DNA of 24,731 bases, from assembly GCA_963558405.1 (NCBI GenBank), contig CAUWGC010000021.1, positions 1 to 24,731 of the forward strand, in the 5' to 3' direction. Both the position numbers and the translations under genes were made by a program. The DNA comes from an uncultured Clostridia bacterium. GTDB lineage: Bacteria; Bacillota; Clostridia; TANB77; CAG-508. Positions 1 through 7,724 of this stretch are shown piece by piece. The notes beneath the pieces were generated by a model. It saw only the letters and a program-made list of their open reading frames with translations, made no database searches and had not been told where the DNA came from. Positions within the stretch are counted from its first letter, which is position 1. Every line of letters starts with the position of its first letter.

Positions 1-68
1 TTCTATCAATTTTATTTTGAATTTTTCTATCAGTTTTATTTTAACATTTACAGATTTTGAAAAAGAGT

Positions 69-101
69 TATAAAATAGAGGGCTAAGCTCTCTATTTTAT
101 A
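69..101. terminator. Hairpin, probable bidirectional intrinsic terminator
   Basis: tataaaatagagggc-taa-gctctctattttata. Confidence 0.6.
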
Positions 102-184
102 GAGAAATTACAATTTTTCAATAAGATTCAGAGTAATCTTTTAACTTGAATATTTTCCTTTTAGTATATTTGTCTACATAATTA

Positions 185-213
185 TTTACAATTTATTACA
201 TTTATGCTATAAT
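185..213 (+). promoter_or_regulatory. sigmaA-like promoter of the ASCH-GNAT gene
   Basis: TTTACA-N17-TATAAT with TG extension; an 8-bp inverted repeat (220-238) follows. Confidence 0.55.
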
Positions 214-284
214 AACAATATACTGTAGATTACAGTATGTTGTAGTTTTAAGAACATATACTTTATGAAAGAACGGTTGATGTT

Positions 285-1097
285 ATGGCTAAAAACTATA
301 ACTGGAGAATCAAGCGGGAATACTACAACCTTATTAACAAGGGGACTAAGACACTTGAAGTAAGGGTTGGATATCCTGATATTAAAAGGGTTCGACAAGG
401 TGATACCATCACTTTTAAGGACTATTCTAATATCAGGTTCGAGGTTGTCCGTGTAACTCGTTATGATGATTTTCCTGAAATGCTTGACAATGAAGATTCT
501 GCTAAGGCAATTCCTGGTGTTACCAAGTATAAAGCTTTGGATATGTATCAGGAAATTTACCCCGAGGAAAAAGAAGCCTTGGGTGTTTATGTCTTTGAGC
601 TTCGGAAGCAAACAAATCAGAGGAAACTCTACACCTTAAGTTCTCTTATTGGCAATCATAAGCTTTTCAGTAAATTTGCCTACCTCTCTTATTGCCTTAC
701 GGATCATATTTGCAAAGATTATCCTAAGCATTTTGAGTGGTACTGGACAAAAGAGATTCCTAGAGTGCTTAACGGTACAGGTGATGTTATTATCTGTACA
801 ATCGATAATAATGTTGCTGGGGTTGTATTCCTGAAAAAGGATGAAATCGAGAGTAAAATTTGTACTATCTTTGTTGCTGAGGGATATCGTGGAAAGCATA
901 TTTCAACAATACTGTTGGAACAAGCTTTCAAATATCTCGGAACTACAAAACCTCTCATCACAATTGCAGATTATAAAATCTCAATGTTTGAGCATATCAT
1001 CAAGAAATACCAATGGGAGTTAACACAAACTATGAGTAAAGGCTATTATAACAATACCTCTCGTGAGTTGGTGTTTAATGGAAAACTTCCTAATTGA
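285..1097 (+). CDS. ASCH (PUA-like) domain fused to a C-terminal GNAT acetyltransferase
   Basis: N-terminal ASCH motif GxKxxExR (GTKTLEVR); C-terminal GNAT motif A-like KICTIFVAEGYRGKHISTILL. Confidence 0.8.
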   Translation: MAKNYNWRIKREYYNLINKGTKTLEVRVGYPDIKRVRQGDTITFKDYSNIRFEVVRVTRYDDFPEMLDNEDSAKAIPGVTKYKALDMYQEIYPEEKEALGVYVFELRKQTNQRKLYTLSSLIGNHKLFSKFAYLSYCLTDHICKDYPKHFEWYWTKEIPRVLNGTGDVIICTIDNNVAGVVFLKKDEIESKICTIFVAEGYRGKHISTILLEQAFKYLGTTKPLITIADYKISMFEHIIKKYQWELTQTMSKGYYNNTSRELVFNGKLPN

Positions 1098-1126
1098 TTC
1101 TCTACCTGTCAAGACACAACAAAAAG

Positions 1127-1164
1127 AGCACACTCTTAAATTCGATTGAATTTTAGAGTGTGCT
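1127..1164. terminator. Long hairpin between the convergent ASCH genes
   Basis: agcacactct-t-aaattc gatt gaattt-t-agagtgtgct. Confidence 0.65.
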
Positions 1165-1168
1165 TTCA

Positions 1169-1510
1169 TTATATCTTCTCAATGCGTATTCCTACAACAC
1201 CATATTGCTTTTGTTTTTCTGGTGTATAAAATTCTTCTAATACATTTAATAATTCTTGCTTTGTCATTGATTTATCAGATAATATTCCTATATCAAAATC
1301 TTCAAATAAATCTTCAAATGTATTATATCTTAATATACCTATAACTTTTACTTTCATTGTAATTTCTAATTCAGGTTCTTTTTGAAAAATTATTGTATCT
1401 CCTATATTAATTTTTTGTCTTTTTTCATCATATAATCTTAATTCTATCCTTTTTGTTCCATTATTAATATAGTCGAAGTATTTAGGTTGTAATTTTAATA
1501 TATGTTCCAT
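1169..1510 (-). CDS. Stand-alone ASCH domain protein
   Basis: GTKRIELRL...INIGDTIIF motif; GGAGG RBS upstream. Confidence 0.85.
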   Translation of the reverse strand: MEHILKLQPKYFDYINNGTKRIELRLYDEKRQKINIGDTIIFQKEPELEITMKVKVIGILRYNTFEDLFEDFDIGILSDKSMTKQELLNVLEEFYTPEKQKQYGVVGIRIEKI

Positions 1511-1583
1511 TTTTTCTACCTCCAGTTAGTATTGTAACATAAATACTTTTTTTTGTAAATAACATTAACATTTACATTTCAAA

Positions 1584-1928
1584 TTACATCTTATTATTAT
1601 ATTTATCTAAAAATTCTTTCATTGCTATATTTACTAATCTTGTAAGTGAAATTCCTGTTTCTTGTGTTATCTTATTTAAAGCCTCTACATTTTCTTTTCT
1701 AATCATTACACTTCTATAAATTGTTATCTCATCTTCTGGTTTGGCATAATATTTTACATTTCCAGTAGATAGTAAATCTTCAATACAAACATTTATCATA
1801 TCACTAATTGTTGCGTCATAATCTTTATCTACTATTTCTTTTAATCTTGTATATAATCTATCTTCTAAATTTATACTCTTTTGAACAGTATAATTTGATT
1901 TTTTATACAACCTATCTATTGCACTCAT
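1584..1928 (-). CDS. Tandem ribbon-helix-helix DNA-binding protein (114 aa)
   Basis: Two RHH-like units (QKSINLEDRLYTRLK...TISDMINVCI and YRSVMIRKENVEAL...SLTRLVNIAM); start moved to ATG 1928 after AGGAGG. Confidence 0.65.
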   Translation of the reverse strand: MSAIDRLYKKSNYTVQKSINLEDRLYTRLKEIVDKDYDATISDMINVCIEDLLSTGNVKYYAKPEDEITIYRSVMIRKENVEALNKITQETGISLTRLVNIAMKEFLDKYNNKM

Positions 1929-2091
1929 ATATCCACCTCCTATTACTCGTTTTACAACCATTTGAATTATATAAAATTTTATTTTTAAATAATACTTGTT
2001 ACAATTCCTTATAGACGAGCATAAACAGGTTTGTATTTAGTGTGCATTTGCATAAAATAAGAGAGTATAGCAACTCTCTTTATACAAATTA

Positions 2092-3063
2092 TTATTTTTT
2101 CTTTTTTAATTTTTTTATTATTTCATTAGATAATTCTTCACTTGGTGTTACTTTTACAGTTAGCCCATTCTTTGTTTTTATTACATTTGAACTTAATCTT
2201 GCTCTACTATTATAAACATTTTCTTGGTTTTTACAACTAAATGTATCATATAGTGCCTTTGGGTTATTTGCAATAAATGCTTTTCCACAATGCTTACAAA
2301 ACTTTAAATATTTCTTTTCTTGTATTATATATAATTTAAAGTTTTCATCTATGTATTCTTTTAAACTCCTAATATGTATTGTTAGTCCGTCATATTCTAA
2401 ATTAACTCTTATATGATTAGATTCTAATTTATTTATTTCTCCTACATTTATATATTCATCATTAGCTTTGCTTAATTCTTTTAATGTGTTATACATAAAT
2501 TGAGCATATTTTATTATCATATCTACTTGTTCATAATATTTTTCATTTTTAAAGAACAACTTATTTATTTCTGGAGAAATAAATTTTTCCATACTATGTT
2601 CATATATATTTTTGTTTACTTTCTCCAGTAATTCTTTTATTTCTTCATCAGTAACAGTAGGAAAGAATATTTTAAAATAATCAACTATTTTTATTGTGCT
2701 AAAGCAATCACTATTATTAATATAATTAAATTCTTTTAATAGTATTTCCTTGTCTAAAGTGTAATATCTATTTACTGGAAAATCGTGTATAAGTCCTAAA
2801 AGTCCATATTTATTTACATATTCAAGCAATAACTTGTCAGCATCTTCTTTTTGTTCTAAAGATAATTTTCCTAAATTGATAAAATCTATTAACGGTTTAT
2901 CATTTTCTCTATAATCATCAAAATCAATTAAAGAATAGTTTGTTCTATTTTCTTTTAAAATTTTAGGAACAACATATTTAATGTTGTTTAGTTCCTTTAT
3001 TTCATATTCTTCAAACTTTGGCATTGACTCATTGTTAAAGCCATATTCTAAATTCATTTTCAT
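2092..3063 (-). CDS. Hypothetical protein with C-terminal CGNR-like zinc finger (mobile-element type)
   Basis: CKHCGKAF...YDTFSCKNQENVYNSR; AGGAG RBS. Confidence 0.6.
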   Translation of the reverse strand: MKMNLEYGFNNESMPKFEEYEIKELNNIKYVVPKILKENRTNYSLIDFDDYRENDKPLIDFINLGKLSLEQKEDADKLLLEYVNKYGLLGLIHDFPVNRYYTLDKEILLKEFNYINNSDCFSTIKIVDYFKIFFPTVTDEEIKELLEKVNKNIYEHSMEKFISPEINKLFFKNEKYYEQVDMIIKYAQFMYNTLKELSKANDEYINVGEINKLESNHIRVNLEYDGLTIHIRSLKEYIDENFKLYIIQEKKYLKFCKHCGKAFIANNPKALYDTFSCKNQENVYNSRARLSSNVIKTKNGLTVKVTPSEELSNEIIKKLKKKK

Positions 3064-3111
3064 AGTATTCTCCTATTCATAAAAATTCTTCAAAAAGTTT
3101 ATTGTAATCTA

Positions 3112-3140
3112 TTGACATTTAAAAAGTATTACCTTATAAT
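3112..3140 (+). promoter_or_regulatory. Consensus sigmaA promoter (rightward)
   Basis: TTGACA-N17-TATAAT. Confidence 0.75.
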
Positions 3141-3216
3141 AGAAATGTAATCTATTTTATATTATAAAATATTAACATTTGTTTTGTGTTAATTTTAATA
3201 CTTTCTTTATAATAAT

Positions 3217-3245
3217 ATATTACAATAAATATTTATAATTGTCAA
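3217..3245 (-). promoter_or_regulatory. sigmaA-like promoter (leftward, facing the 3112 promoter)
   Basis: Minus strand TTGACA-N17-TAATAT. Confidence 0.55.
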
Positions 3246-3338
3246 ATGATGTATATAAATTACGAGTTGTACTTTATGTATATGGTATTTTTATACCTAA
3301 AAAAGTGCAAGTAAAAAATATAAGTAAAGGAGAACAAA

Positions 3339-3806
3339 ATGGATAAAAAAGAAAGAATTTTACAAATGTATTTTGAAGAACACCAGAAACAAGACATTAT
3401 TGCTGAAACTGTTGAGGTTTCTCAAAGTTATATTTCTCAAGTAATTCAGAAAGATACAAGATATACTAGTGAAAAAGAAATAAGACATAATGAATCAATG
3501 CAGAAAAAGGCTGAATATAATAAAGAGTATAGTAAAACTTATATTAGAAAAAGGAAAAATAATTTAATAGAAGAATATTATGCTTTACTTGAATTGCTAA
3601 AAAAAGATAACAAGTTTCTATCAACAAAATCTGAAATGTCAGATATTGCATTTGCTAAATGGAATAGATCAATTTATCAATATGCCAAAAATTCTAGCAA
3701 TTTAGTTTTAAGAAAAGGAATAAATGTTACAAAAGATGTACCAAGAGTAGTAAAAAATATTGTGAGAGCAAGTAGTATAAAAAGTTCAAAGATATATTCA
3801 AGATAA
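3339..3806 (+). CDS. Helix-turn-helix DNA-binding protein
   Basis: KQDIIAETVEVSQSYISQVI HTH-like segment; AAGGAG RBS. Confidence 0.65.
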   Translation: MDKKERILQMYFEEHQKQDIIAETVEVSQSYISQVIQKDTRYTSEKEIRHNESMQKKAEYNKEYSKTYIRKRKNNLIEEYYALLELLKKDNKFLSTKSEMSDIAFAKWNRSIYQYAKNSSNLVLRKGINVTKDVPRVVKNIVRASSIKSSKIYSR

Positions 3807-3836
3807 TCACTTTGTTAAGTCAAAGTGAATTTTTTT
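3807..3836 (+). terminator. Intrinsic terminator
   Basis: tcactttg-ttaagt-caaagtga followed by a T run. Confidence 0.55.
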
Positions 3837-3838
3837 AG

Positions 3839-3867
3839 TAATATTTTTAGAACTTTAATAATAGTAT
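3839..3867 (+). promoter_or_regulatory. Putative sigmaE-type promoter of the 55-aa ORF
   Basis: TAATATT-N14-AATAGTAT; same -35 (AGTAATATTT) and spacing as upstream of bofA; AT-rich background weakens the call. Confidence 0.35.
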
Positions 3868-3890
3868 TGAAAAGAAAGTAGGTGAGAATT

Positions 3891-4058
3891 TTGAAAAAGT
3901 CTTTAAATATTACATTTTATAATCCTAATACAGAAGAACAAATAGTACAAGCATTTGCTGGAGTTTTGGCGTATAACTTGGCAGAGAATAATGAAAAGAT
4001 AAAATTTGATTATAATTTTCAAAATTCTCACTGTATAGAAGATGAAATTGAGATATAA
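3891..4058 (+). CDS. Small 55-aa protein (MKKSLNITFYNPNTEEQIVQAF...), candidate recombination directionality factor
   Basis: Not in the ORF track; TTG start after AGTAGGTGA RBS, open to TAA 4056-4058; function is inference. Confidence 0.6.
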   Translation: MKKSLNITFYNPNTEEQIVQAFAGVLAYNLAENNEKIKFDYNFQNSHCIEDEIEI

Positions 4059-4178
4059 AATTTAATAATATTAATTGAATAAAATAATCATATATGTTAA
4101 AATCGAAACAGATAATATTTTTCTTATATATAGATAAATACGATAAAATGTAGTATAATAGAAAGAGAGGTTGATTTT

Positions 4179-4619
4179 ATGCTAAAATTATATTTAGATA
4201 CTTGTTGTTATAATAGACCATTTGATGATTTAGAACAAGAAAAAATAAACCTAGAGGCAAATGCAATAGAGAATATATTTAGAAAGCATATAAATAAAGA
4301 AGTAGAAATTTATAAAAGTATGGTAATAGATTTTGAAATATCCAAAATCAAATTAGATAATAAAAGACGACAAGTAGAAGATTTATATGACGCAATGGAA
4401 TTATCACAAATTACTTATACACCAGAAATTAAACAAAGAGCATTAGAATTAAAGCAATTTAATATAAAAGATATGGATGCATTACATTTATCTTTTGCAG
4501 AGAGTGCAGATATAGATTATTTTATTACAACTGACAGGTTGTTAATAAATGCTTCAAAAAGAGCAAATTTAAGAATTAAAGTTATAAATCCAATAGAATT
4601 TATTATGGAGGTGATTTAA
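4179..4619 (+). CDS. PIN-domain (VapC-like) protein
   Basis: LYLDTCCYNRPFDD...DMDALHL...YFITTD acidic PIN motifs. Confidence 0.85.
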   Translation: MLKLYLDTCCYNRPFDDLEQEKINLEANAIENIFRKHINKEVEIYKSMVIDFEISKIKLDNKRRQVEDLYDAMELSQITYTPEIKQRALELKQFNIKDMDALHLSFAESADIDYFITTDRLLINASKRANLRIKVINPIEFIMEVI

Positions 4620-4820
4620 ATGGCTGTAACAGTAAGAGAGTTAGAAAGAATAAGACGAGAAGGTCTTAAAGCTTTAAAAGATAAATTAGGTGTTGAAGGT
4701 ATGATAAAATTTATACAAATGTATAGTGATGGAAAAGGAGATTATACAAAGGAAAAATATGAAAACAATGAAGAATTGACAATAGAAGATTTTGAAAAAT
4801 ATTTAGCTGAAAACAACTAA
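4620..4820 (+). CDS. Small putative antitoxin partner of the PIN protein
   Basis: Abuts the PIN stop (TAA-ATG), GGAGGTG RBS inside the PIN gene; 66 aa with acidic tail. Confidence 0.65.
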   Translation: MAVTVRELERIRREGLKALKDKLGVEGMIKFIQMYSDGKGDYTKEKYENNEELTIEDFEKYLAENN

Positions 4821-4838
4821 TCAAATGTTAATCGCAAC

Positions 4839-4920
4839 CCTATTTGCGTAATATAAATGCATAGGTGAACAGATGTAACTCTTTGGCTCTACTTGCGACA
4901 AATAAATGCGTAGATGAACA
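4839..4920. repeat. Two 33-nt imperfect direct repeats, each forming a hairpin
   Basis: 4839-4871 and 4888-4920, 26/33 identical. Confidence 0.75.
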
Positions 4921-4926
4921 AATTAT

Positions 4927-4961
4927 AAAAAGCTATTCCTAAATGCAGGAGTAGTTTTTTT
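4927..4961 (+). terminator. Intrinsic terminator between the TA pair and the recombinase
   Basis: aaaaagctattcct-aaatgc-aggagtagttttttt. Confidence 0.7.
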
Positions 4962-4971
4962 ATGCGTTTTA

Positions 4972-5000
4972 TTGCTTTTTTATAACTTATATGCTAAAAT
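4972..5000 (+). promoter_or_regulatory. sigmaA-like promoter of the recombinase
   Basis: TTGCTT-N17-TAAAAT with TG extension. Confidence 0.55.
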
Positions 5001-5063
5001 GTAACAGAACGGATATGAAGTTACCGACATAAAACAACATATAAGAAAGTGAGAAATTAAGTT

Positions 5064-6653
5064 ATGAAAATTGCAGCATATTGTAGAGTTTCAACTGAAA
5101 AGGAAGCACAAATAGACTCTCTTGAAAAGCAAATAGAGTTTTTTAATGAATTTACAAAAAAGAATGGCTATGAGTTGTACAAGCTATATGCAGATGAAGG
5201 AATTTCTGGAAAACAAATAAAACACAGAAAGCAATTCCAACAAATGATGAAAGACGCAAAGGCAAAAAAATTTGAAAGAGTAGTTGTAAAAGATGTAAGC
5301 CGTTTTGCAAGAAATACAGTAGATTTATTACAAAGTATAAGAGAATTAAAATCTTATGGAATACAAGTAGACTTTTTAAATAATGGCGAAGTTATGGAAG
5401 GTGGATCTGAATTTATACTAACAATTTTAGGTGCAATGGCACAACAGGAAAGTGCCAATATGTCTAAAAGAGTTAAATTTGGAAAAGACATTACTGCTAA
5501 AAAAGGAAGAGTACCTAATTTGGTATTTGGTTATGACAAAATACCAGGTGAAAAATATACATTAAAAATAAACGAAGAAGAAGCAAAAATTGTAAAAGAA
5601 ATATTTGAAAGCTATGTATATAAAGGTACTGGTACAACAAAAATTGCTTGGGAATTAAATGATAGAGGAATAAGAACAAAGAAAACAAAGTCAAAATGGG
5701 TCCAAACTTCTATTGTAAGAATGCTAAAAAATCCAATATATACAGGCAGAGTAACAAATAAGAAATCAGAAATTACTGACTTTATAACAGGAGCAAGAAA
5801 AGAGCTACCAGAAGAAGATTGGCTTATTTCTGACAAACCAGAAATGAGAATTATATCAGATGAATTGTTTAATAGAGCACAAGATATTTTAAAACAAAGG
5901 TCAAATGAATTTAAACTAAACAATAAAAGAGAAAAAACAGAATATGTATTTAGTACACTTATCTATTGTAAACATTGTGGTTATTCATTTAGAAGGATAA
6001 GAAGGAAATATACAGAAGAAGGTAAAGAATATATAAGATGGGTATGTAGTGGAAGAAACTCAATGGGTGTAAATCATTGTCCGAATACAACTGTTATAGA
6101 TGAAGAAGAACTTTTAAATGCTATTAAAGAATATCTTAAAAGTATAATTTCTAATAAAAAGAACTTTATGAAAGCAGTTGAAAAAGAATTTGAAAAAATA
6201 ACAGCTTTAAGAGAAAGCAATGAAAGAAGTGAAGAAAGCCTACTTAAAGAAATAGAAAAAGTAACAGTTAAAAAACAAAAATATATGGAAATGTTCCAAA
6301 ATGAAGTAATCAATATGCAAGAACTAAAACAATATACAAATCCATTAAATGAAGATATAGCAAGATTAGAAAGAGAACTAAAGCTAATTACTTCTGAAAT
6401 AAAGGAAAAAGATGTATTAGAAAAAGAACTAACAAAAACAATAAGTACAGTTGATGATATTTTAAATAATGAAACAATTACAAATGCTATGCTTAAAACA
6501 ATAATAGATGCTATTTACGTAGATAGCGAAGGAAATGTAGAAGTAAGACTAAAATTATTAAATGAAATTGGAAGTCAGCCTACAGTAATTACAAATTTTG
6601 AAGATATTAATTCTACCGTTACGAAAAGTAACAACGGTACACAAAGATGTTAG
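5064..6653 (+). CDS. Large serine recombinase (SpoIVCA/CisA-like architecture)
   Basis: YCRVST catalytic Ser, DEGISG, KDVSRFARN, recombinase domain, CKHC...C...C zinc ribbon, coiled coil. Confidence 0.93.
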   Translation: MKIAAYCRVSTEKEAQIDSLEKQIEFFNEFTKKNGYELYKLYADEGISGKQIKHRKQFQQMMKDAKAKKFERVVVKDVSRFARNTVDLLQSIRELKSYGIQVDFLNNGEVMEGGSEFILTILGAMAQQESANMSKRVKFGKDITAKKGRVPNLVFGYDKIPGEKYTLKINEEEAKIVKEIFESYVYKGTGTTKIAWELNDRGIRTKKTKSKWVQTSIVRMLKNPIYTGRVTNKKSEITDFITGARKELPEEDWLISDKPEMRIISDELFNRAQDILKQRSNEFKLNNKREKTEYVFSTLIYCKHCGYSFRRIRRKYTEEGKEYIRWVCSGRNSMGVNHCPNTTVIDEEELLNAIKEYLKSIISNKKNFMKAVEKEFEKITALRESNERSEESLLKEIEKVTVKKQKYMEMFQNEVINMQELKQYTNPLNEDIARLERELKLITSEIKEKDVLEKELTKTISTVDDILNNETITNAMLKTIIDAIYVDSEGNVEVRLKLLNEIGSQPTVITNFEDINSTVTKSNNGTQRC

Positions 6654-6792
6654 TGAAAGACTACTTAAGATAAATCCAGCTTTAGCTCATGAAGTAAGAG
6701 AAATCTTAAATGAGAATAAAGCAGAAAGACATATAAGAGGAGGAATGGCTACAAAATTAAAATATAGTCATCAACATGAAAATGTAGGTTAA
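6634..6792 (+). pseudogene. spoIIID: 3' half of spoIIID (split gene; N-terminal ~35 codons absent)
   Basis: TVHKDVSERLLKINPALAHEVREILNENKAERHIRGGMATKLKY matches the SpoIIID C-terminal signature; upstream in-frame residues do not match. Confidence 0.88.
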
Positions 6793-6795
6793 AAT

Positions 6796-6840
6796 AAAAC
6801 ACACATAGTTTTATATAAAATAAAACTTTTGTGTGTTTTT
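6796..6840. terminator. Bidirectional terminator between spoIIID and yabG
   Basis: aaaacacaca-t-agttttat...ataaaact-tt-tgtgtgtttt. Confidence 0.6.
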
Positions 6841-6860
6841 ATATATATTAAAAGTTATTT

Positions 6861-7724
6861 TTAAGAAGTAAAAATAACTTTTTTCTTTCCCATTGCACCA
6901 GTTCCTCCAATTCCTTTTGTTCCATCACGTAATTCGGAAGCTACATCAGAAATAGTTACATATTTACTTATGTCTGTAGTAGCTATTTTTTCGGCAATTA
7001 TTAAAGGATCTGCAAAATCAATTAATACTCTAGCAGGTGATGAAGCAAAATTAGAACCAGCCGACATTATTGCTTCAAAATAACTTTGACAAGCACCAGC
7101 AAAGATTACTAAATCTTTATTATTAGAATAAGACCATTTACGTGCAATTTTAACACTATCTATAAAATATTTGGAATTTCTATAATTATAAATATTATTG
7201 TAGTCTGTTCCATTTTTTATCATTCCATCATGACCAGTTAATACTAAAATATCTGGCTGATAGTGATTTAATAAATTTTCTATCATATAAGGTTGTTTAT
7301 TTTCTGCAATATTTTTAACAATAGCATTTAGACCTAAATTTTTATAATGTTTAGCAGATTTATCACTGTATTTTTTGTCACCATCTACGTGTAAAATTTT
7401 TCCTGTGTATGTCATATTTTCACTTCGATTATTTAAAGAAAAAACATTTTTTAAAGAGGAAATGGTGTTTTTTGAATAATGAGGACATTGTACAATACGA
7501 TTTTTTAATTTTGAATCTAAGTTTCTTAAGTTTTTATCTACTATAACAGAATCTACAAGTTCTAAATCGGAAACAGGGCTGTCCGCCTCAATACGAATTG
7601 TTAAGCCTTTAAGAATTGCAATATCATTACCATTATTACCTCTTATAATTCTTGTTACAATAAAGAGGATGTCTTTTCCATAAGATTTTCTACCAACAAT
7701 GTCACCTTTTTTGATTTTTTCCAT
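6861..7724 (-). CDS. yabG: Sporulation peptidase YabG
   Basis: GDIVGRKSYGKDILF, PDILVLTGHDG, FAGACQSYFEAI, GSNFASSPARVLI. Confidence 0.92.
   Translation of the reverse strand: MEKIKKGDIVGRKSYGKDILFIVTRIIRGNNGNDIAILKGLTIRIEADSPVSDLELVDSVIVDKNLRNLDSKLKNRIVQCPHYSKNTISSLKNVFSLNNRSENMTYTGKILHVDGDKKYSDKSAKHYKNLGLNAIVKNIAENKQPYMIENLLNHYQPDILVLTGHDGMIKNGTDYNNIYNYRNSKYFIDSVKIARKWSYSNNKDLVIFAGACQSYFEAIMSAGSNFASSPARVLIDFADPLIIAEKIATTDISKYVTISDVASELRDGTKGIGGTGAMGKKKVIFTS

What the first reader, a model, noticed from the sequence alone, without database searches (positions are those of the whole stretch)
5064..6792. spoIIID split by a large-serine-recombinase element: candidate skin-like developmental excision element
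Seen: the 64-aa ORF at 6598-6792 matches SpoIIID only from ~6634 on (TVHKDVSERL...NKAERHIRGG.ATKLKY). It has no stop or frameshift and ends at a terminator. The N-terminal part, including most of the HTH, is missing and a serine recombinase sits in its place. No 5' half was found in the window. Established: serine-recombinase elements interrupt mother-cell genes and excise during sporulation (skin in sigK of B. subtilis and C. difficile, SPbeta in spsM). SpoIIID is itself needed for skin excision and sigK expression. Inference: here the rearrangement acts one step earlier, on spoIIID itself, so excision cannot depend on this SpoIIID. Intact-looking yabG, sipL, yunB and bofA nearby suggest sporulation is retained. 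I cannot confirm from memory whether spoIIID-interrupting elements have been reported.
Basis: partly seen in the sequence, partly recalled or inferred. Interest (0 to 1): 0.92.

Follow-up and report, generated by a model that had tools for sequence, protein, structure and literature searches.

The report
Mobile element splitting sporulation gene spoIIID
A small mobile DNA element carrying its own cut-and-paste enzyme sits inside spoIIID, a key spore-formation regulator gene, at the same spot in many uncultured gut Clostridia, and clean removal would restore the gene, as in the known 'skin' elements.

Summary
Window 5064-6653 encodes a large serine recombinase (LSR). From 6640 to 6792 lies an intact 3' part of spoIIID (Pfam SpoIIID positions 34-81 of 82). 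The window is a whole contig that starts inside the element. The 5' half is in none of the 34 contigs.

Relatives show the full picture. Elements of 4.9-12 kb sit at one crossover, the CA in the His codon of STVHKDV. Both halves lie on one strand, and joining them gives an in-frame gene. About 100 of 375 sampled family genomes have only half-size matches. The LSR was followed directly by an intact 3' half in 75 of 80 loci. All 15 LSR-bearing genomes checked had both halves.

The element is not a prophage. It resembles Tn4451 (Mob_Pre and TnpV in the closed-genome copy) and moves between species: 91-95% DNA identity against 66-72% for host flanks.

Two findings are new. The 5' half runs in frame into a conserved 40-codon element-encoded tail. 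A conserved 58-aa gene accompanies the LSR.

Mother-cell-specific excision is plausible but untested; no read or junction evidence could be obtained. A spoIIID-interrupting element was already noted in one sentence for Ruminiclostridium cellulolyticum. Verdict: a real new member of a known kind, of moderate to high interest.

The parts
1..6641 (.). Right-hand part of the intervening element. The contig begins inside it; the left end (attL, with mob and tnpV if it matches the relatives) is not in the assembly.
   Evidence: Window 1570-6783 is 91-95% identical to the elements of G181 and G306, while host flanks are 66-72% identical. Window 43-96 matches the stretch just 3' of the Mob_Pre gene in those elements.
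285..1097 (+). Cargo gene: ASCH + GNAT acetyltransferase domains (270 aa)
   Evidence: Pfam ASCH E 1e-9, Acetyltransf_1 E 6e-6. Absent from the G181 and G306 elements.
1169..1510 (-). Cargo gene: ASCH domain protein (113 aa)
   Evidence: Pfam ASCH E 4e-16
1584..1961 (-). Ribbon-helix-helix protein (125 aa), shared with the G181 and G306 elements
   Evidence: Pfam RHH_3 E 4e-5; DNA match
2092..3063 (-). 323-aa protein of no known family, shared with the G181 and G306 elements
   Evidence: No Pfam or NCBIfam hit. A near-identical ORF lies in L031 8986..9957.
3339..3806 (+). p155: 155-aa helix-turn-helix protein with weak similarity to sigma-70 region 4; possible element regulator
   Evidence: Pfam Sigma70_r4 E 1e-3, below the cut-off. 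46% identical to the G008 element's 153-aa protein. A paralogue sits beside another LSR on G000:C7.
3807..3828 (+). Terminator-like hairpin between p155 and p58
3839..3881 (+). Upstream region of p58, conserved in all 7 elements aligned; promoter type undecided
   Evidence: Alignment. The sigma-E-like motif match is post hoc and the motif is not specific.
3882..4058 (+). p58: small acidic protein that travels with the LSR; candidate recombination directionality factor or regulator
   Evidence: Present in all 7 elements aligned, including the 4.9-kb minimal element. Found within 2.5 kb upstream of the LSR in 50 of 81 loci. No family hit; no match in phages or plasmids.
4179..4820 (+). PIN-domain protein (146 aa) plus a 66-aa partner: toxin-antitoxin-like module in a variable slot
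   Evidence: Pfam PIN E 4e-5. Other elements carry an unrelated 168-182-aa gene in this slot.
4927..4960 (+). Terminator-like hairpin ahead of the LSR transcription unit
4972..5000 (+). Conserved promoter-like site of the LSR: TTGCTT, 17 bases, then TG-extended -10 (TGCTAAAAT)
   Evidence: Conserved in 6 of the 7 elements aligned. Not listed by the simple scan because the -35 matches only 3 of 6.
5064..6653 (+). Large serine recombinase. Its last codons and its stop lie beyond the crossover, in spoIIID DNA.
   Evidence: Pfam domains. 87% identical to the G008 copy. 80 loci share at least 85% identity.
6614..6641 (+). attR: P arm TACCGTTACGAAAAGTAAC (6614-6632) and the crossover dinucleotide CA (6640-6641) within GTACACA
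   Evidence: attL/attR comparisons in G008, G181 and G306 bracket the exchange to this CA. It is also the centre of the TACCGTT / AACGGTA dyad of the inferred attP.
6640..6792 (+). 3' part of spoIIID (His codon to TAA; 50 codons), intact
   Evidence: Pfam SpoIIID positions 34-81. Open frame, 81-96% identical to relatives.
6796..6842 (+). Inverted repeat plus T-run after spoIIID (long-loop hairpin)
   Evidence: Read; not called by the scan.

Best explanation
A 5-12 kb integrative, in most copies mobilizable, element is integrated in the coding sequence of spoIIID. It carries a large serine recombinase (LSR), a small conserved 58-aa protein and variable cargo. The copies with their left part fetched and scanned also carry a Mob_Pre relaxase and TnpV. 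Integration is at the CA of the His codon in the recognition helix STVHKDV.

Shown: the LSR-proximal junction in this window; the same junction in many species; both halves on one strand in relatives; a short shared core; and restoration of an in-frame spoIIID by in-silico recombination at that core. Also shown: the element moves between species.

Inferred: the LSR is made constitutively from a conserved TG-extended -10 promoter. Excision is switched on in the mother cell by an element-encoded factor made under sigma-E. The best candidate is p58. An alternative is the chimeric protein that the spoIIID promoter produces from the 5' half plus a conserved element tail. The gene would then be rebuilt only in the terminal cell, while the forespore keeps the element. 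This copies the Clostridioides difficile skin logic (constitutive recombinase, sporulation-controlled directionality factor) but needs sigma-E only, not SpoIIID.

In this genome the 5' half, attL and about 2.6 kb of the element most likely lie in an assembly gap.
For: Junction in the window.

Both halves with an element between them: G008, about 9.7 kb. Two closed genomes, G181 and G306, plus G130 and G107: 10-12 kb. Six of 15 further genomes have the halves on one contig, 4.9-11 kb apart.

The crossover is bracketed to one CA, and the join reads K-S-T-V-H-K-D-V-S-E-R in frame.

Frequency: 7 of 18 family genomes with a match have split-type matches, against 0 of 11 in four other families of the order. 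About 100 of 375 (hand count 101) have only half-size matches in the wider family sample.

75 of 80 LSR loci are followed at once by an intact 3' half: 74 by script and L092 by eye. These give 71 distinct sequences.

15 of 15 LSR-bearing genomes have one N part and one C part and no full-length copy.

The sigma-E-type promoter (GAATACAAT -10) and the ribosome-binding site are kept in all 8 split genes and all 9 intact genes aligned.

Only 2 frameshifts were seen: L105 among the 76 3' halves that could be read to their end or to a frameshift, and L120 among the 25 5'-half junctions read.

G000 keeps SpoIVA, Spo0A, SpoVAC/EB, SpoIIP, YabG, SipL, YunB and BofA.

The LSR promoter is conserved. p58 and its upstream region are conserved in every element examined, including the minimal one.

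Mobility: element DNA is 91-97% identical where host flanks are 66-83%. LSRs 99-100% identical lie next to different host spoIIID sequences. Mob_Pre and TnpV are present in the G181 copy.

Precedent for the logic: abstract of PMC5025042.
Against: No evidence of excision of any kind. No attP junction was found in 401 family genomes or in viral contigs with a validated pattern. The metagenome scans for it were void through my own pattern error.

The 5' half is absent from this assembly.

Element copies are more alike than their hosts. Insertions may therefore be recent, and the intactness of the halves is weaker proof of selection than it looks.

No sporulation promoter could be assigned to p58 or the LSR. 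My sigma-E-like motif was drawn up after seeing the p58 site, and most of its 44 genome hits do not precede genes.

Relatives of this element type (Tn4451; recalled, not tested here) excise with the recombinase alone and without developmental control.
Confidence: 0.55

Rival explanations
1. A plain selfish mobilizable element. Its recombinase happens to recognise a very conserved stretch of spoIIID. Insertion simply knocks the gene out. Excision is spontaneous and rare, as for other serine-recombinase transposons, with no tie to the mother cell. Carriers sporulate poorly or not at all, and the element persists by frequent horizontal transfer.
For: The element is far more alike between hosts than the hosts are to each other. 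LSRs 99-100% identical occur in different species. The fuller copies carry a Mob_Pre relaxase and TnpV. The LSR promoter looks vegetative. No sporulation-type promoter could be shown. No phage genes are present. Some decay is seen: frameshifts in L105 and L120, remnants in G007 and L068.
Against: About a quarter of sampled species in a spore-gene-rich family carry the insertion. Almost all halves, the promoter and the ribosome-binding site are intact. No carrier among the 15 checked has a spare intact copy. The other sporulation genes checked in G000 gave matches without internal stops; SpoIIP came as two adjacent matches in separate frames, which was not followed up. A knock-out of a gene needed for transmission by spores should be purged.
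Confidence: 0.25
2. The integrated state is not a null. The 5' half is fused in frame to a conserved 40-codon element tail. This gives a 76-90-aa chimeric protein that keeps the SpoIIID helix-turn-helix and replaces or modifies SpoIIID function, so excision is not needed for sporulation.
For: The tail is present and open in 8 of 10 attL junctions and in 12 of 15 further ones. It always ends at the same stop. For codons 14-40, dN/dS is about 0.17, like the N part (0.15), whereas the codons over the P' arm give about 1.0. In several elements the recognition helix STVHKDVT is kept whole. Tails in remnant junctions have decayed (G007 second copy, L068).
Against: The tail has no similarity to the native C part and matches no family. 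The native 3' half would then be useless, yet 75 of 80 are intact. An antisense frame that shares third codon positions is also open, with dN/dS 0.31, so coding is likely but not proven. The sample is 7 sequences of 27 codons, and the pairs are not independent.
Confidence: 0.08
3. In this particular genome the fragment is a dead remnant. The 5' half and the left end of the element were deleted, so nothing can be rejoined.
For: No 5' half, attL arm or tail was found anywhere in the 34 contigs of an assembly rated 100% complete. No mob or close tnpV copy was found.
Against: The contig ends inside the element, right where relatives have the mob gene's 3' flank. The 3' half, the LSR and p58 are all intact. 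The same-genus relative G001 has both halves, each at a contig end. All 15 other carriers tested have both parts. Completeness scores count marker genes, not every 3-kb stretch.
Confidence: 0.1

Closest known systems
skin element in sigK (Bacillus subtilis; Clostridioides difficile skinCd with recombinase CD1231 and directionality factor CD1234)
   Same: An LSR element lies inside a mother-cell regulator gene. The recombinase sits at the element's edge next to the 3' gene part. Precise excision would rebuild the frame. As in skinCd, the recombinase promoter looks constitutive, so control would rest on a small accessory protein (abstract of PMC5025042; passages of 10.1101/2022.02.25.481979).
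   Different: The target is spoIIID, one step upstream of sigK, so control cannot use SpoIIID. There are no phage genes. The fuller copies carry a relaxase and TnpV. The element is actively shared between species. The 5' half is fused to a conserved element tail. Excision has not been observed.
spoIIID-interrupting 'skin-like element' of Ruminiclostridium cellulolyticum (Galperin et al. 2022; one sentence plus Table S3)
   Same: The same host gene is reported as interrupted by a skin-like element (passage read).
   Different: I could not see Table S3, because supplements are closed. I could not compare the site, the recombinase or the content. That note concerns one genome. Here the insertion is seen in about a quarter of sampled species of one family and at 75 of the 80 best of 165 related LSR loci.
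gin element in gerE of Bacillus cereus ATCC 10987 (Abe et al. 2017, PMC5595907)
   Same: A non-prophage element with serine recombinase(s) splits a very small (225 bp) mother-cell transcription-factor gene. Excision there needs a recombinase plus a small extra factor, GirX (abstract and passages).
   Different: gin is 28.6 kb with three recombinases and is shown to excise during sporulation. Here there is one LSR in a 5-12 kb element with mobilization genes, and no experiment.
Tn4451/Tn4453-type mobilizable transposons (TnpX, TnpV, TnpZ). My description of these rests on recall, not on a call.
   Same: A large serine recombinase plus TnpV (PF14198) and a Mob_Pre relaxase (PF01076) in the G181 copy.
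   Different: Here there is one fixed target site inside spoIIID. No resistance gene was seen. A conserved p58 and a conserved tail are present. The minimal copy lacks mob and tnpV.

Membership tests
Sporulation gene-intervening element (skin-like) | The element interrupts the coding sequence of a mother-cell sporulation gene | tested here: met
   SpoIIID profile positions 34-81 directly follow the LSR. N and C parts flank the element in relatives.
Sporulation gene-intervening element (skin-like) | A site-specific (serine) recombinase is encoded in the element, at its edge | tested here: met
   Pfam Resolvase + Recombinase + Zn_ribbon_recom. The ORF ends 12 bases beyond the crossover.
Sporulation gene-intervening element (skin-like) | attL and attR share a short core, and recombination there restores one intact in-frame gene | tested here: inconclusive
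   Met in relatives: G008, G181, G306, G130 and G107. It cannot be tested in G000 because attL and the 5' half are not in the assembly.
Sporulation gene-intervening element (skin-like) | Excision happens during sporulation, in the mother cell | not testable with these tools
No attP was found in assemblies.
Sporulation gene-intervening element (skin-like) | The recombinase or a directionality factor is under a sporulation sigma factor | tested here: inconclusive
   The LSR promoter looks vegetative. The p58 upstream region is conserved, but the sigma-E-like match is post hoc and the motif is unspecific.
Tn4451-type mobilizable transposon / integrative mobilizable element | Large serine recombinase plus Mob_Pre relaxase (and TnpV) | tested here: inconclusive
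   Met in the G181 copy. A 415-aa relaxase-like ORF is in the G008 copy (not scanned). The window lacks that part of the element. The 4.9-kb copy of G420 has neither.
SpoIIID (PF12116), as a complete gene | Match over the whole 82-position profile in one frame | tested here: not met
   Only positions 34-81 match.
NCBIfam equivalogs XisF (NF041201) and CcrB (NF047343) | Score at or above the curated cut-off | tested here: not met
   160 bits against a cut-off of 375, and 169 bits against 900. The protein is related to these but is a member of neither.

The most novel reading that the evidence does not exclude
The element times its own removal by promoter capture. When sigma-E fires the spoIIID promoter in the mother cell, the first product is not SpoIIID. 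It is a chimera of the SpoIIID helix-turn-helix and a conserved 40-residue element tail. This chimera, alone or through p58, turns the constitutively made recombinase towards excision. Excision then rebuilds spoIIID. The host's earliest mother-cell regulator gene would thus serve as the sensor, the switch and the product of one DNA rearrangement. The element would be a widespread, horizontally moving passenger of spore-forming gut bacteria.
Probability: 0.12. Interest if true: 0.85.

Novelty: new member of a known kind. Interest (0 to 1): 0.6.

Why it matters
SpoIIID is the first mother-cell-specific transcription factor after sigma-E, and in the model organisms it is needed to reach sigma-K. 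If this element is excised on schedule, the known series of rearranged sporulation genes (sigK, spsM, spoVFB, spoVR, gerE, yabG) extends to the top of the mother-cell cascade. It would do so in a large, uncultured, small-genome family of gut Clostridia, where roughly one sampled species in four carries the insertion.

The case also shows that a mobilizable, non-phage element can use this niche and spread between species while doing so.

Two practical points follow. Split spoIIID genes in such genomes should not be scored as loss of sporulation. The recombinase, with its well-defined att sites, is a ready candidate for in vitro tests of directionality control. If excision is not developmental, the element would instead be a widespread, reversible off-switch for sporulation in gut communities, which would also be worth knowing.

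Tried and rejected
Search for the 5' half in G000. I used a Pfam search of the genome, tblastn with 8 full-length relatives at E up to 10 and motif searches for the core, P arm and P' arm. I also looked for the G008 neighbour genes, other element proteins and contig-end overlaps. Nothing was found. The best weak hit (C15, E 0.078, 30% identity) is an unrelated helix-turn-helix. The end of C29 looked promising through synteny with G001 (a DUF45-like gene and a tRNA), but the order is rearranged and it does not run into spoIIID.

Read evidence. The look-up of sequencing runs listed 20 runs that hold part of window 5800-7600, 10 of them with half or more of the sampled words. Labels include pig gut and chicken gut metagenomes.

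Exact 56-base stretch of the window in metagenome contigs: 0 hits.

attP junction searches. My first pattern had three instead of four free bases between the P arm and the core, so it could never match. A second pattern also hit attR of hosts with Thr after Val. The third pattern hits only L068 among 129 loci. It found 0 matches in viral contigs and in 0 of 401 family genomes.

Complex prediction of the LSR with the chimeric protein gave no verdict (score 0.00; controls not run). This is no evidence either way.

Sigma-E promoter idea for p58. The motif I used was drawn up after seeing the p58 site. It hits two places in the window (p58 and sipL), but 44 places in the genome, and only 11 of those precede an ORF by my crude rule. 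I rejected it as evidence.

p58 in the phage and plasmid collections: no match.

My guess that the 168-182-aa gene next to the LSR in G420 and G008 is AbiQ/ToxN-like found no Pfam support and was dropped.

Selection on the halves. Because element copies are younger than the host splits, between-species dN/dS of the halves does not test selection after insertion. I did not use it for that.

Supplementary Table S3 of Galperin et al. could not be read because supplements are closed; it may name the R. cellulolyticum site and recombinase.

Literature searches found no other report of a spoIIID-interrupting element. The library holds only open-access papers and preprints.

The count of about 100 of 375 split-type genomes is my hand count of best E-values weaker than 1e-22 in the table. 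It can include genes cut by contig ends or frameshifts (such as G058), and I did not check it genome by genome.
Full report
WHAT IS IN THE WINDOW

The window is the whole 24,731-base contig C21 of a 34-contig, 1.58-Mb genome.

ORF 5064..6653 encodes a 529-aa protein with Resolvase, Recombinase and Zn_ribbon_recom domains, so it is a large serine recombinase (LSR). The 64-aa ORF 6598..6792 matches Pfam SpoIIID only over profile positions 34-81 of 82 (E 1e-21). From the His codon at 6640 to the stop at 6790-6792 the frame is open. The product is 81-96% identical to the same part of relatives' SpoIIID.

The LSR frame overlaps the spoIIID-derived DNA, and its stop codon lies 12 bases past the junction. 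YabG, SipL, YunB and BofA are intact downstream.

THE MISSING HALF

No 5' part of spoIIID is in the window or in any other contig. I searched with the Pfam profile, with tblastn using eight full-length relatives and with junction motifs.

The contig starts inside the element. Window bases 43-96 match the stretch just 3' of the relaxase gene in two closely related element copies. About 2.6 kb of element plus attL would therefore be expected to the left. I could not recover it.

WHAT RELATIVES SHOW

- Among 18 family genomes with a SpoIIID match, 7 have split-type matches: an N part ending near profile position 41-43 or a C part starting at 34-35. None of 11 genomes from four other families of the order does.
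- In G008 both parts lie on one contig and one strand, about 9.7 kb apart, with an LSR 87% identical to the window's next to the 3' part.
- Two closed genomes (G181, G306) and two others (G130, G107) have the parts 10-12 kb apart.
- In a wider sample of 401 family genomes, 375 have a match. By my hand count, 101 of those have only half-size matches.
- A scan of one genome per species found 165 loci that encode a relative of the LSR. The best 80 all share at least 85% identity. They come from uncultured Clostridia genomes whose record titles name human, mouse, rabbit, chicken, deer and sheep gut sources.
- In 75 of those 80 loci the LSR is followed at once by an intact spoIIID 3' part: 74 by script and L092 by eye. 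These give 71 distinct sequences.
- The other five: a frameshift (L105), a contig end (L045), an attP-like junction with a decayed tail (L068), a junction with unrelated DNA (L113) and a different LSR 3' end (L114).
- All 15 LSR-bearing genomes that I searched whole have one N part, one C part and no full-length copy. In six, both parts lie on one contig, 4.9-11 kb apart.

THE SITE

attL and attR share GTACACA and little else.

In G181, attL differs from attR at the third base of this heptamer. In G306, attR differs from attL at the sixth. The exchange must therefore lie at the CA in between, which is the start of the His codon of S-T-V-H-K-D-V.

That CA is also the centre of an inverted repeat, TACCGTT ... 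AACGGTA. The repeat would flank the joined element ends.

Joining the left of attL to the right of attR reads K-S-T-V-H-K-D-V-S-E-R in frame. In the window the CA is at 6640-6641 and the P arm at 6614-6632.

WHAT KIND OF ELEMENT

No phage genes were seen.

The closed-genome copy (G181) carries TnpV (E 3e-34), a Mob_Pre relaxase (E 5e-45), a sigma-70-like gene and several unknown genes. It then has the same right-hand block as the window: a ribbon-helix-helix protein, a 323-aa protein, p155, p58, a PIN module and the LSR.

The smallest copy (G420, 4.9 kb) has only the tail, a 227-aa protein, p58, a 168-aa protein and the LSR.

The window adds ASCH and GNAT genes as cargo.

The common core is therefore the LSR, p58 and the tail described below.

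The element moves between species. Element DNA is 91-95% identical between G000 and G181 or G306, where host flanks are 66-72%. Within one genus, the element is 92-97% identical against 75-83% for the flanks. LSRs 99-100% identical to the window's sit beside clearly different host spoIIID sequences.

A CONSERVED CHIMERIC FRAME

At attL the spoIIID frame does not stop. It runs on for exactly 40 codons into the element and ends with ...IPESIEIKKVFLAEKNPVVKLGLVIK.

- This tail is present in 8 of 10 attL junctions first examined. One exception is cut by a contig end and one is a decayed second copy.
- It is present in 12 of 15 further junctions. Of the other three, one has a different tail, one runs off the contig and one has a frameshift in the N part.
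- Over codons 14-40, dN/dS is about 0.17, like the spoIIID N part (0.15). The first 13 codons, which overlie the recombinase-binding arm, give about 1.0.
- An antisense frame that shares third codon positions is also open, with dN/dS 0.31. Coding in the sense frame is therefore likely but not proven.
- The tail matches no family.

The spoIIID promoter (a -10 of GAATACAAT, like the sigma-E type as I recall it) and the ribosome-binding site are kept in all 8 split genes and all 9 intact genes aligned. A chimera of 76-90 residues should therefore be made when the promoter fires.

REGULATION

Upstream of the LSR, six of seven elements share TTGCTT, 17 bases, then TGCTAAAAT, a TG-extended -10. The simple scan does not list it because the -35 is weak.

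This suggests constitutive expression, as reported for CD1231 of skinCd, where a sigma-E and SpoIIID-dependent small protein (CD1234) gives direction and timing (abstract of PMC5025042).

p58 is small, acidic and always present, and about 50 bases upstream of it are conserved. It is preceded by a terminator-like hairpin.

I could not assign its promoter type. My sigma-E-like motif was post hoc and unspecific.

The complex prediction for the LSR with the chimera gave no verdict.

HOW IT MOST LIKELY WORKS

Shown: site-specific integration of a mobile LSR element in spoIIID at one dinucleotide, in many species, with both gene parts and the promoter kept.

Inferred:
- The LSR can reverse the reaction precisely.
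- This reversal happens in the mother cell under sigma-E control through an accessory factor, p58 or the chimera.
- The forespore keeps the element.

The main rival is a transposon-like element with no developmental control. The recent spread of the element and the vegetative-looking LSR promoter fit that rival as well. It fits less well with the high share of carrier species, the lack of spare copies and the low rate of decay: L105 among the 76 3' halves that could be read to their end or to a frameshift, and L120 among the 25 5'-half junctions read.

KNOWN OR NEW

Intervening elements are established for sigK, spsM, spoVFB, spoVR, gerE and yabG (passages read).

Galperin et al. 2022 state in one sentence that a skin-like element interrupts spoIIID of R. 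cellulolyticum.

Three full-text searches found nothing further.

The finding is thus a new member of a known kind. Its new aspects are scale, mobility between species, a relaxase-bearing non-phage element and the conserved chimeric frame.

LIMITS

- No experiment and no read-level evidence.
- This genome lacks the 5' half in its assembly.
- Three of my junction searches were void through a pattern error.
- The family-wide share is a hand count.

Noticed in passing
L027 (G007:C7:1-8000), N parts at about 4208-4321 and 1577-1690 of the contig: One genome has two different spoIIID 5' parts on one strand, 2.6 kb apart. Each is joined to a P' arm. The second has a decayed tail, and no 3' part is in the assembly. 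This could be a tandem or remnant insertion, or a 5' fragment carried along by an element.
   Followed up: partly
L068 4060-4200: The LSR is followed by P arm, core and P' arm (an attP-like junction), and then by a tail with stop codons. This is the only such junction among the 129 loci; it looks like a tandem insertion or a remnant.
   Followed up: partly
L113 about 4040-4200: An LSR about 88% identical to the window's is followed after the core by unrelated, more GC-rich DNA instead of spoIIID. This could be a secondary site or a chimeric contig.
   Followed up: no
window 6641-6653 and loci L039, L043, L051, L055, L064, L067, L103, L112: The last two or three LSR codons and its stop are host DNA. 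Where the host uses CAT for the His codon, the LSR ends three codons earlier at a TAA. The recombinase C terminus therefore changes with host and with excision.
   Followed up: partly
window 5001-5025: Just after the LSR -10 lies GTAACAGAACGG, followed by an inverted GTTAC. It resembles the P' arm (GTAACA..CAGAACGGTA). It may be a recombinase-binding site for autoregulation.
   Followed up: no
G000 contigs C1, C4 (two), C5, C7, C15, C26: Seven more LSR-like genes (26-33% identical) lie in this 1.58-Mb genome. The one on C7 has a p155-like gene just upstream. The ones on C1 and C15 lie near contig starts with TnpV-like genes nearby.
   Followed up: no
G000 C24 end, C13 end, C5 start: Three contig ends match the same ORF of about 1 kb, which in G306 lies inside the spoIIID element (93-100% identity). 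It is probably a repeated insertion sequence that breaks the assembly.
   Followed up: no
G000:C5:25464-26310 (-): The SpoIIP match comes as two adjacent pieces in separate open frames. This could be a frameshift or an assembly error.
   Followed up: no
table, genus g37: Many genomes of one genus have two SpoIIID matches with best E near 1e-26, between the half-size and full-size classes. The arrangement was not examined.
   Followed up: no
G058:C19:25782-26013: spoIIID matches positions 4-30 and 24-80 side by side in different frames. This is a frameshifted gene rather than an element insertion.
   Followed up: no
L121 (G422:C22:7700-8450): One attL has the usual P' arm but a different short, basic tail (26 codons) instead of the conserved 40-codon tail.
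   Followed up: no
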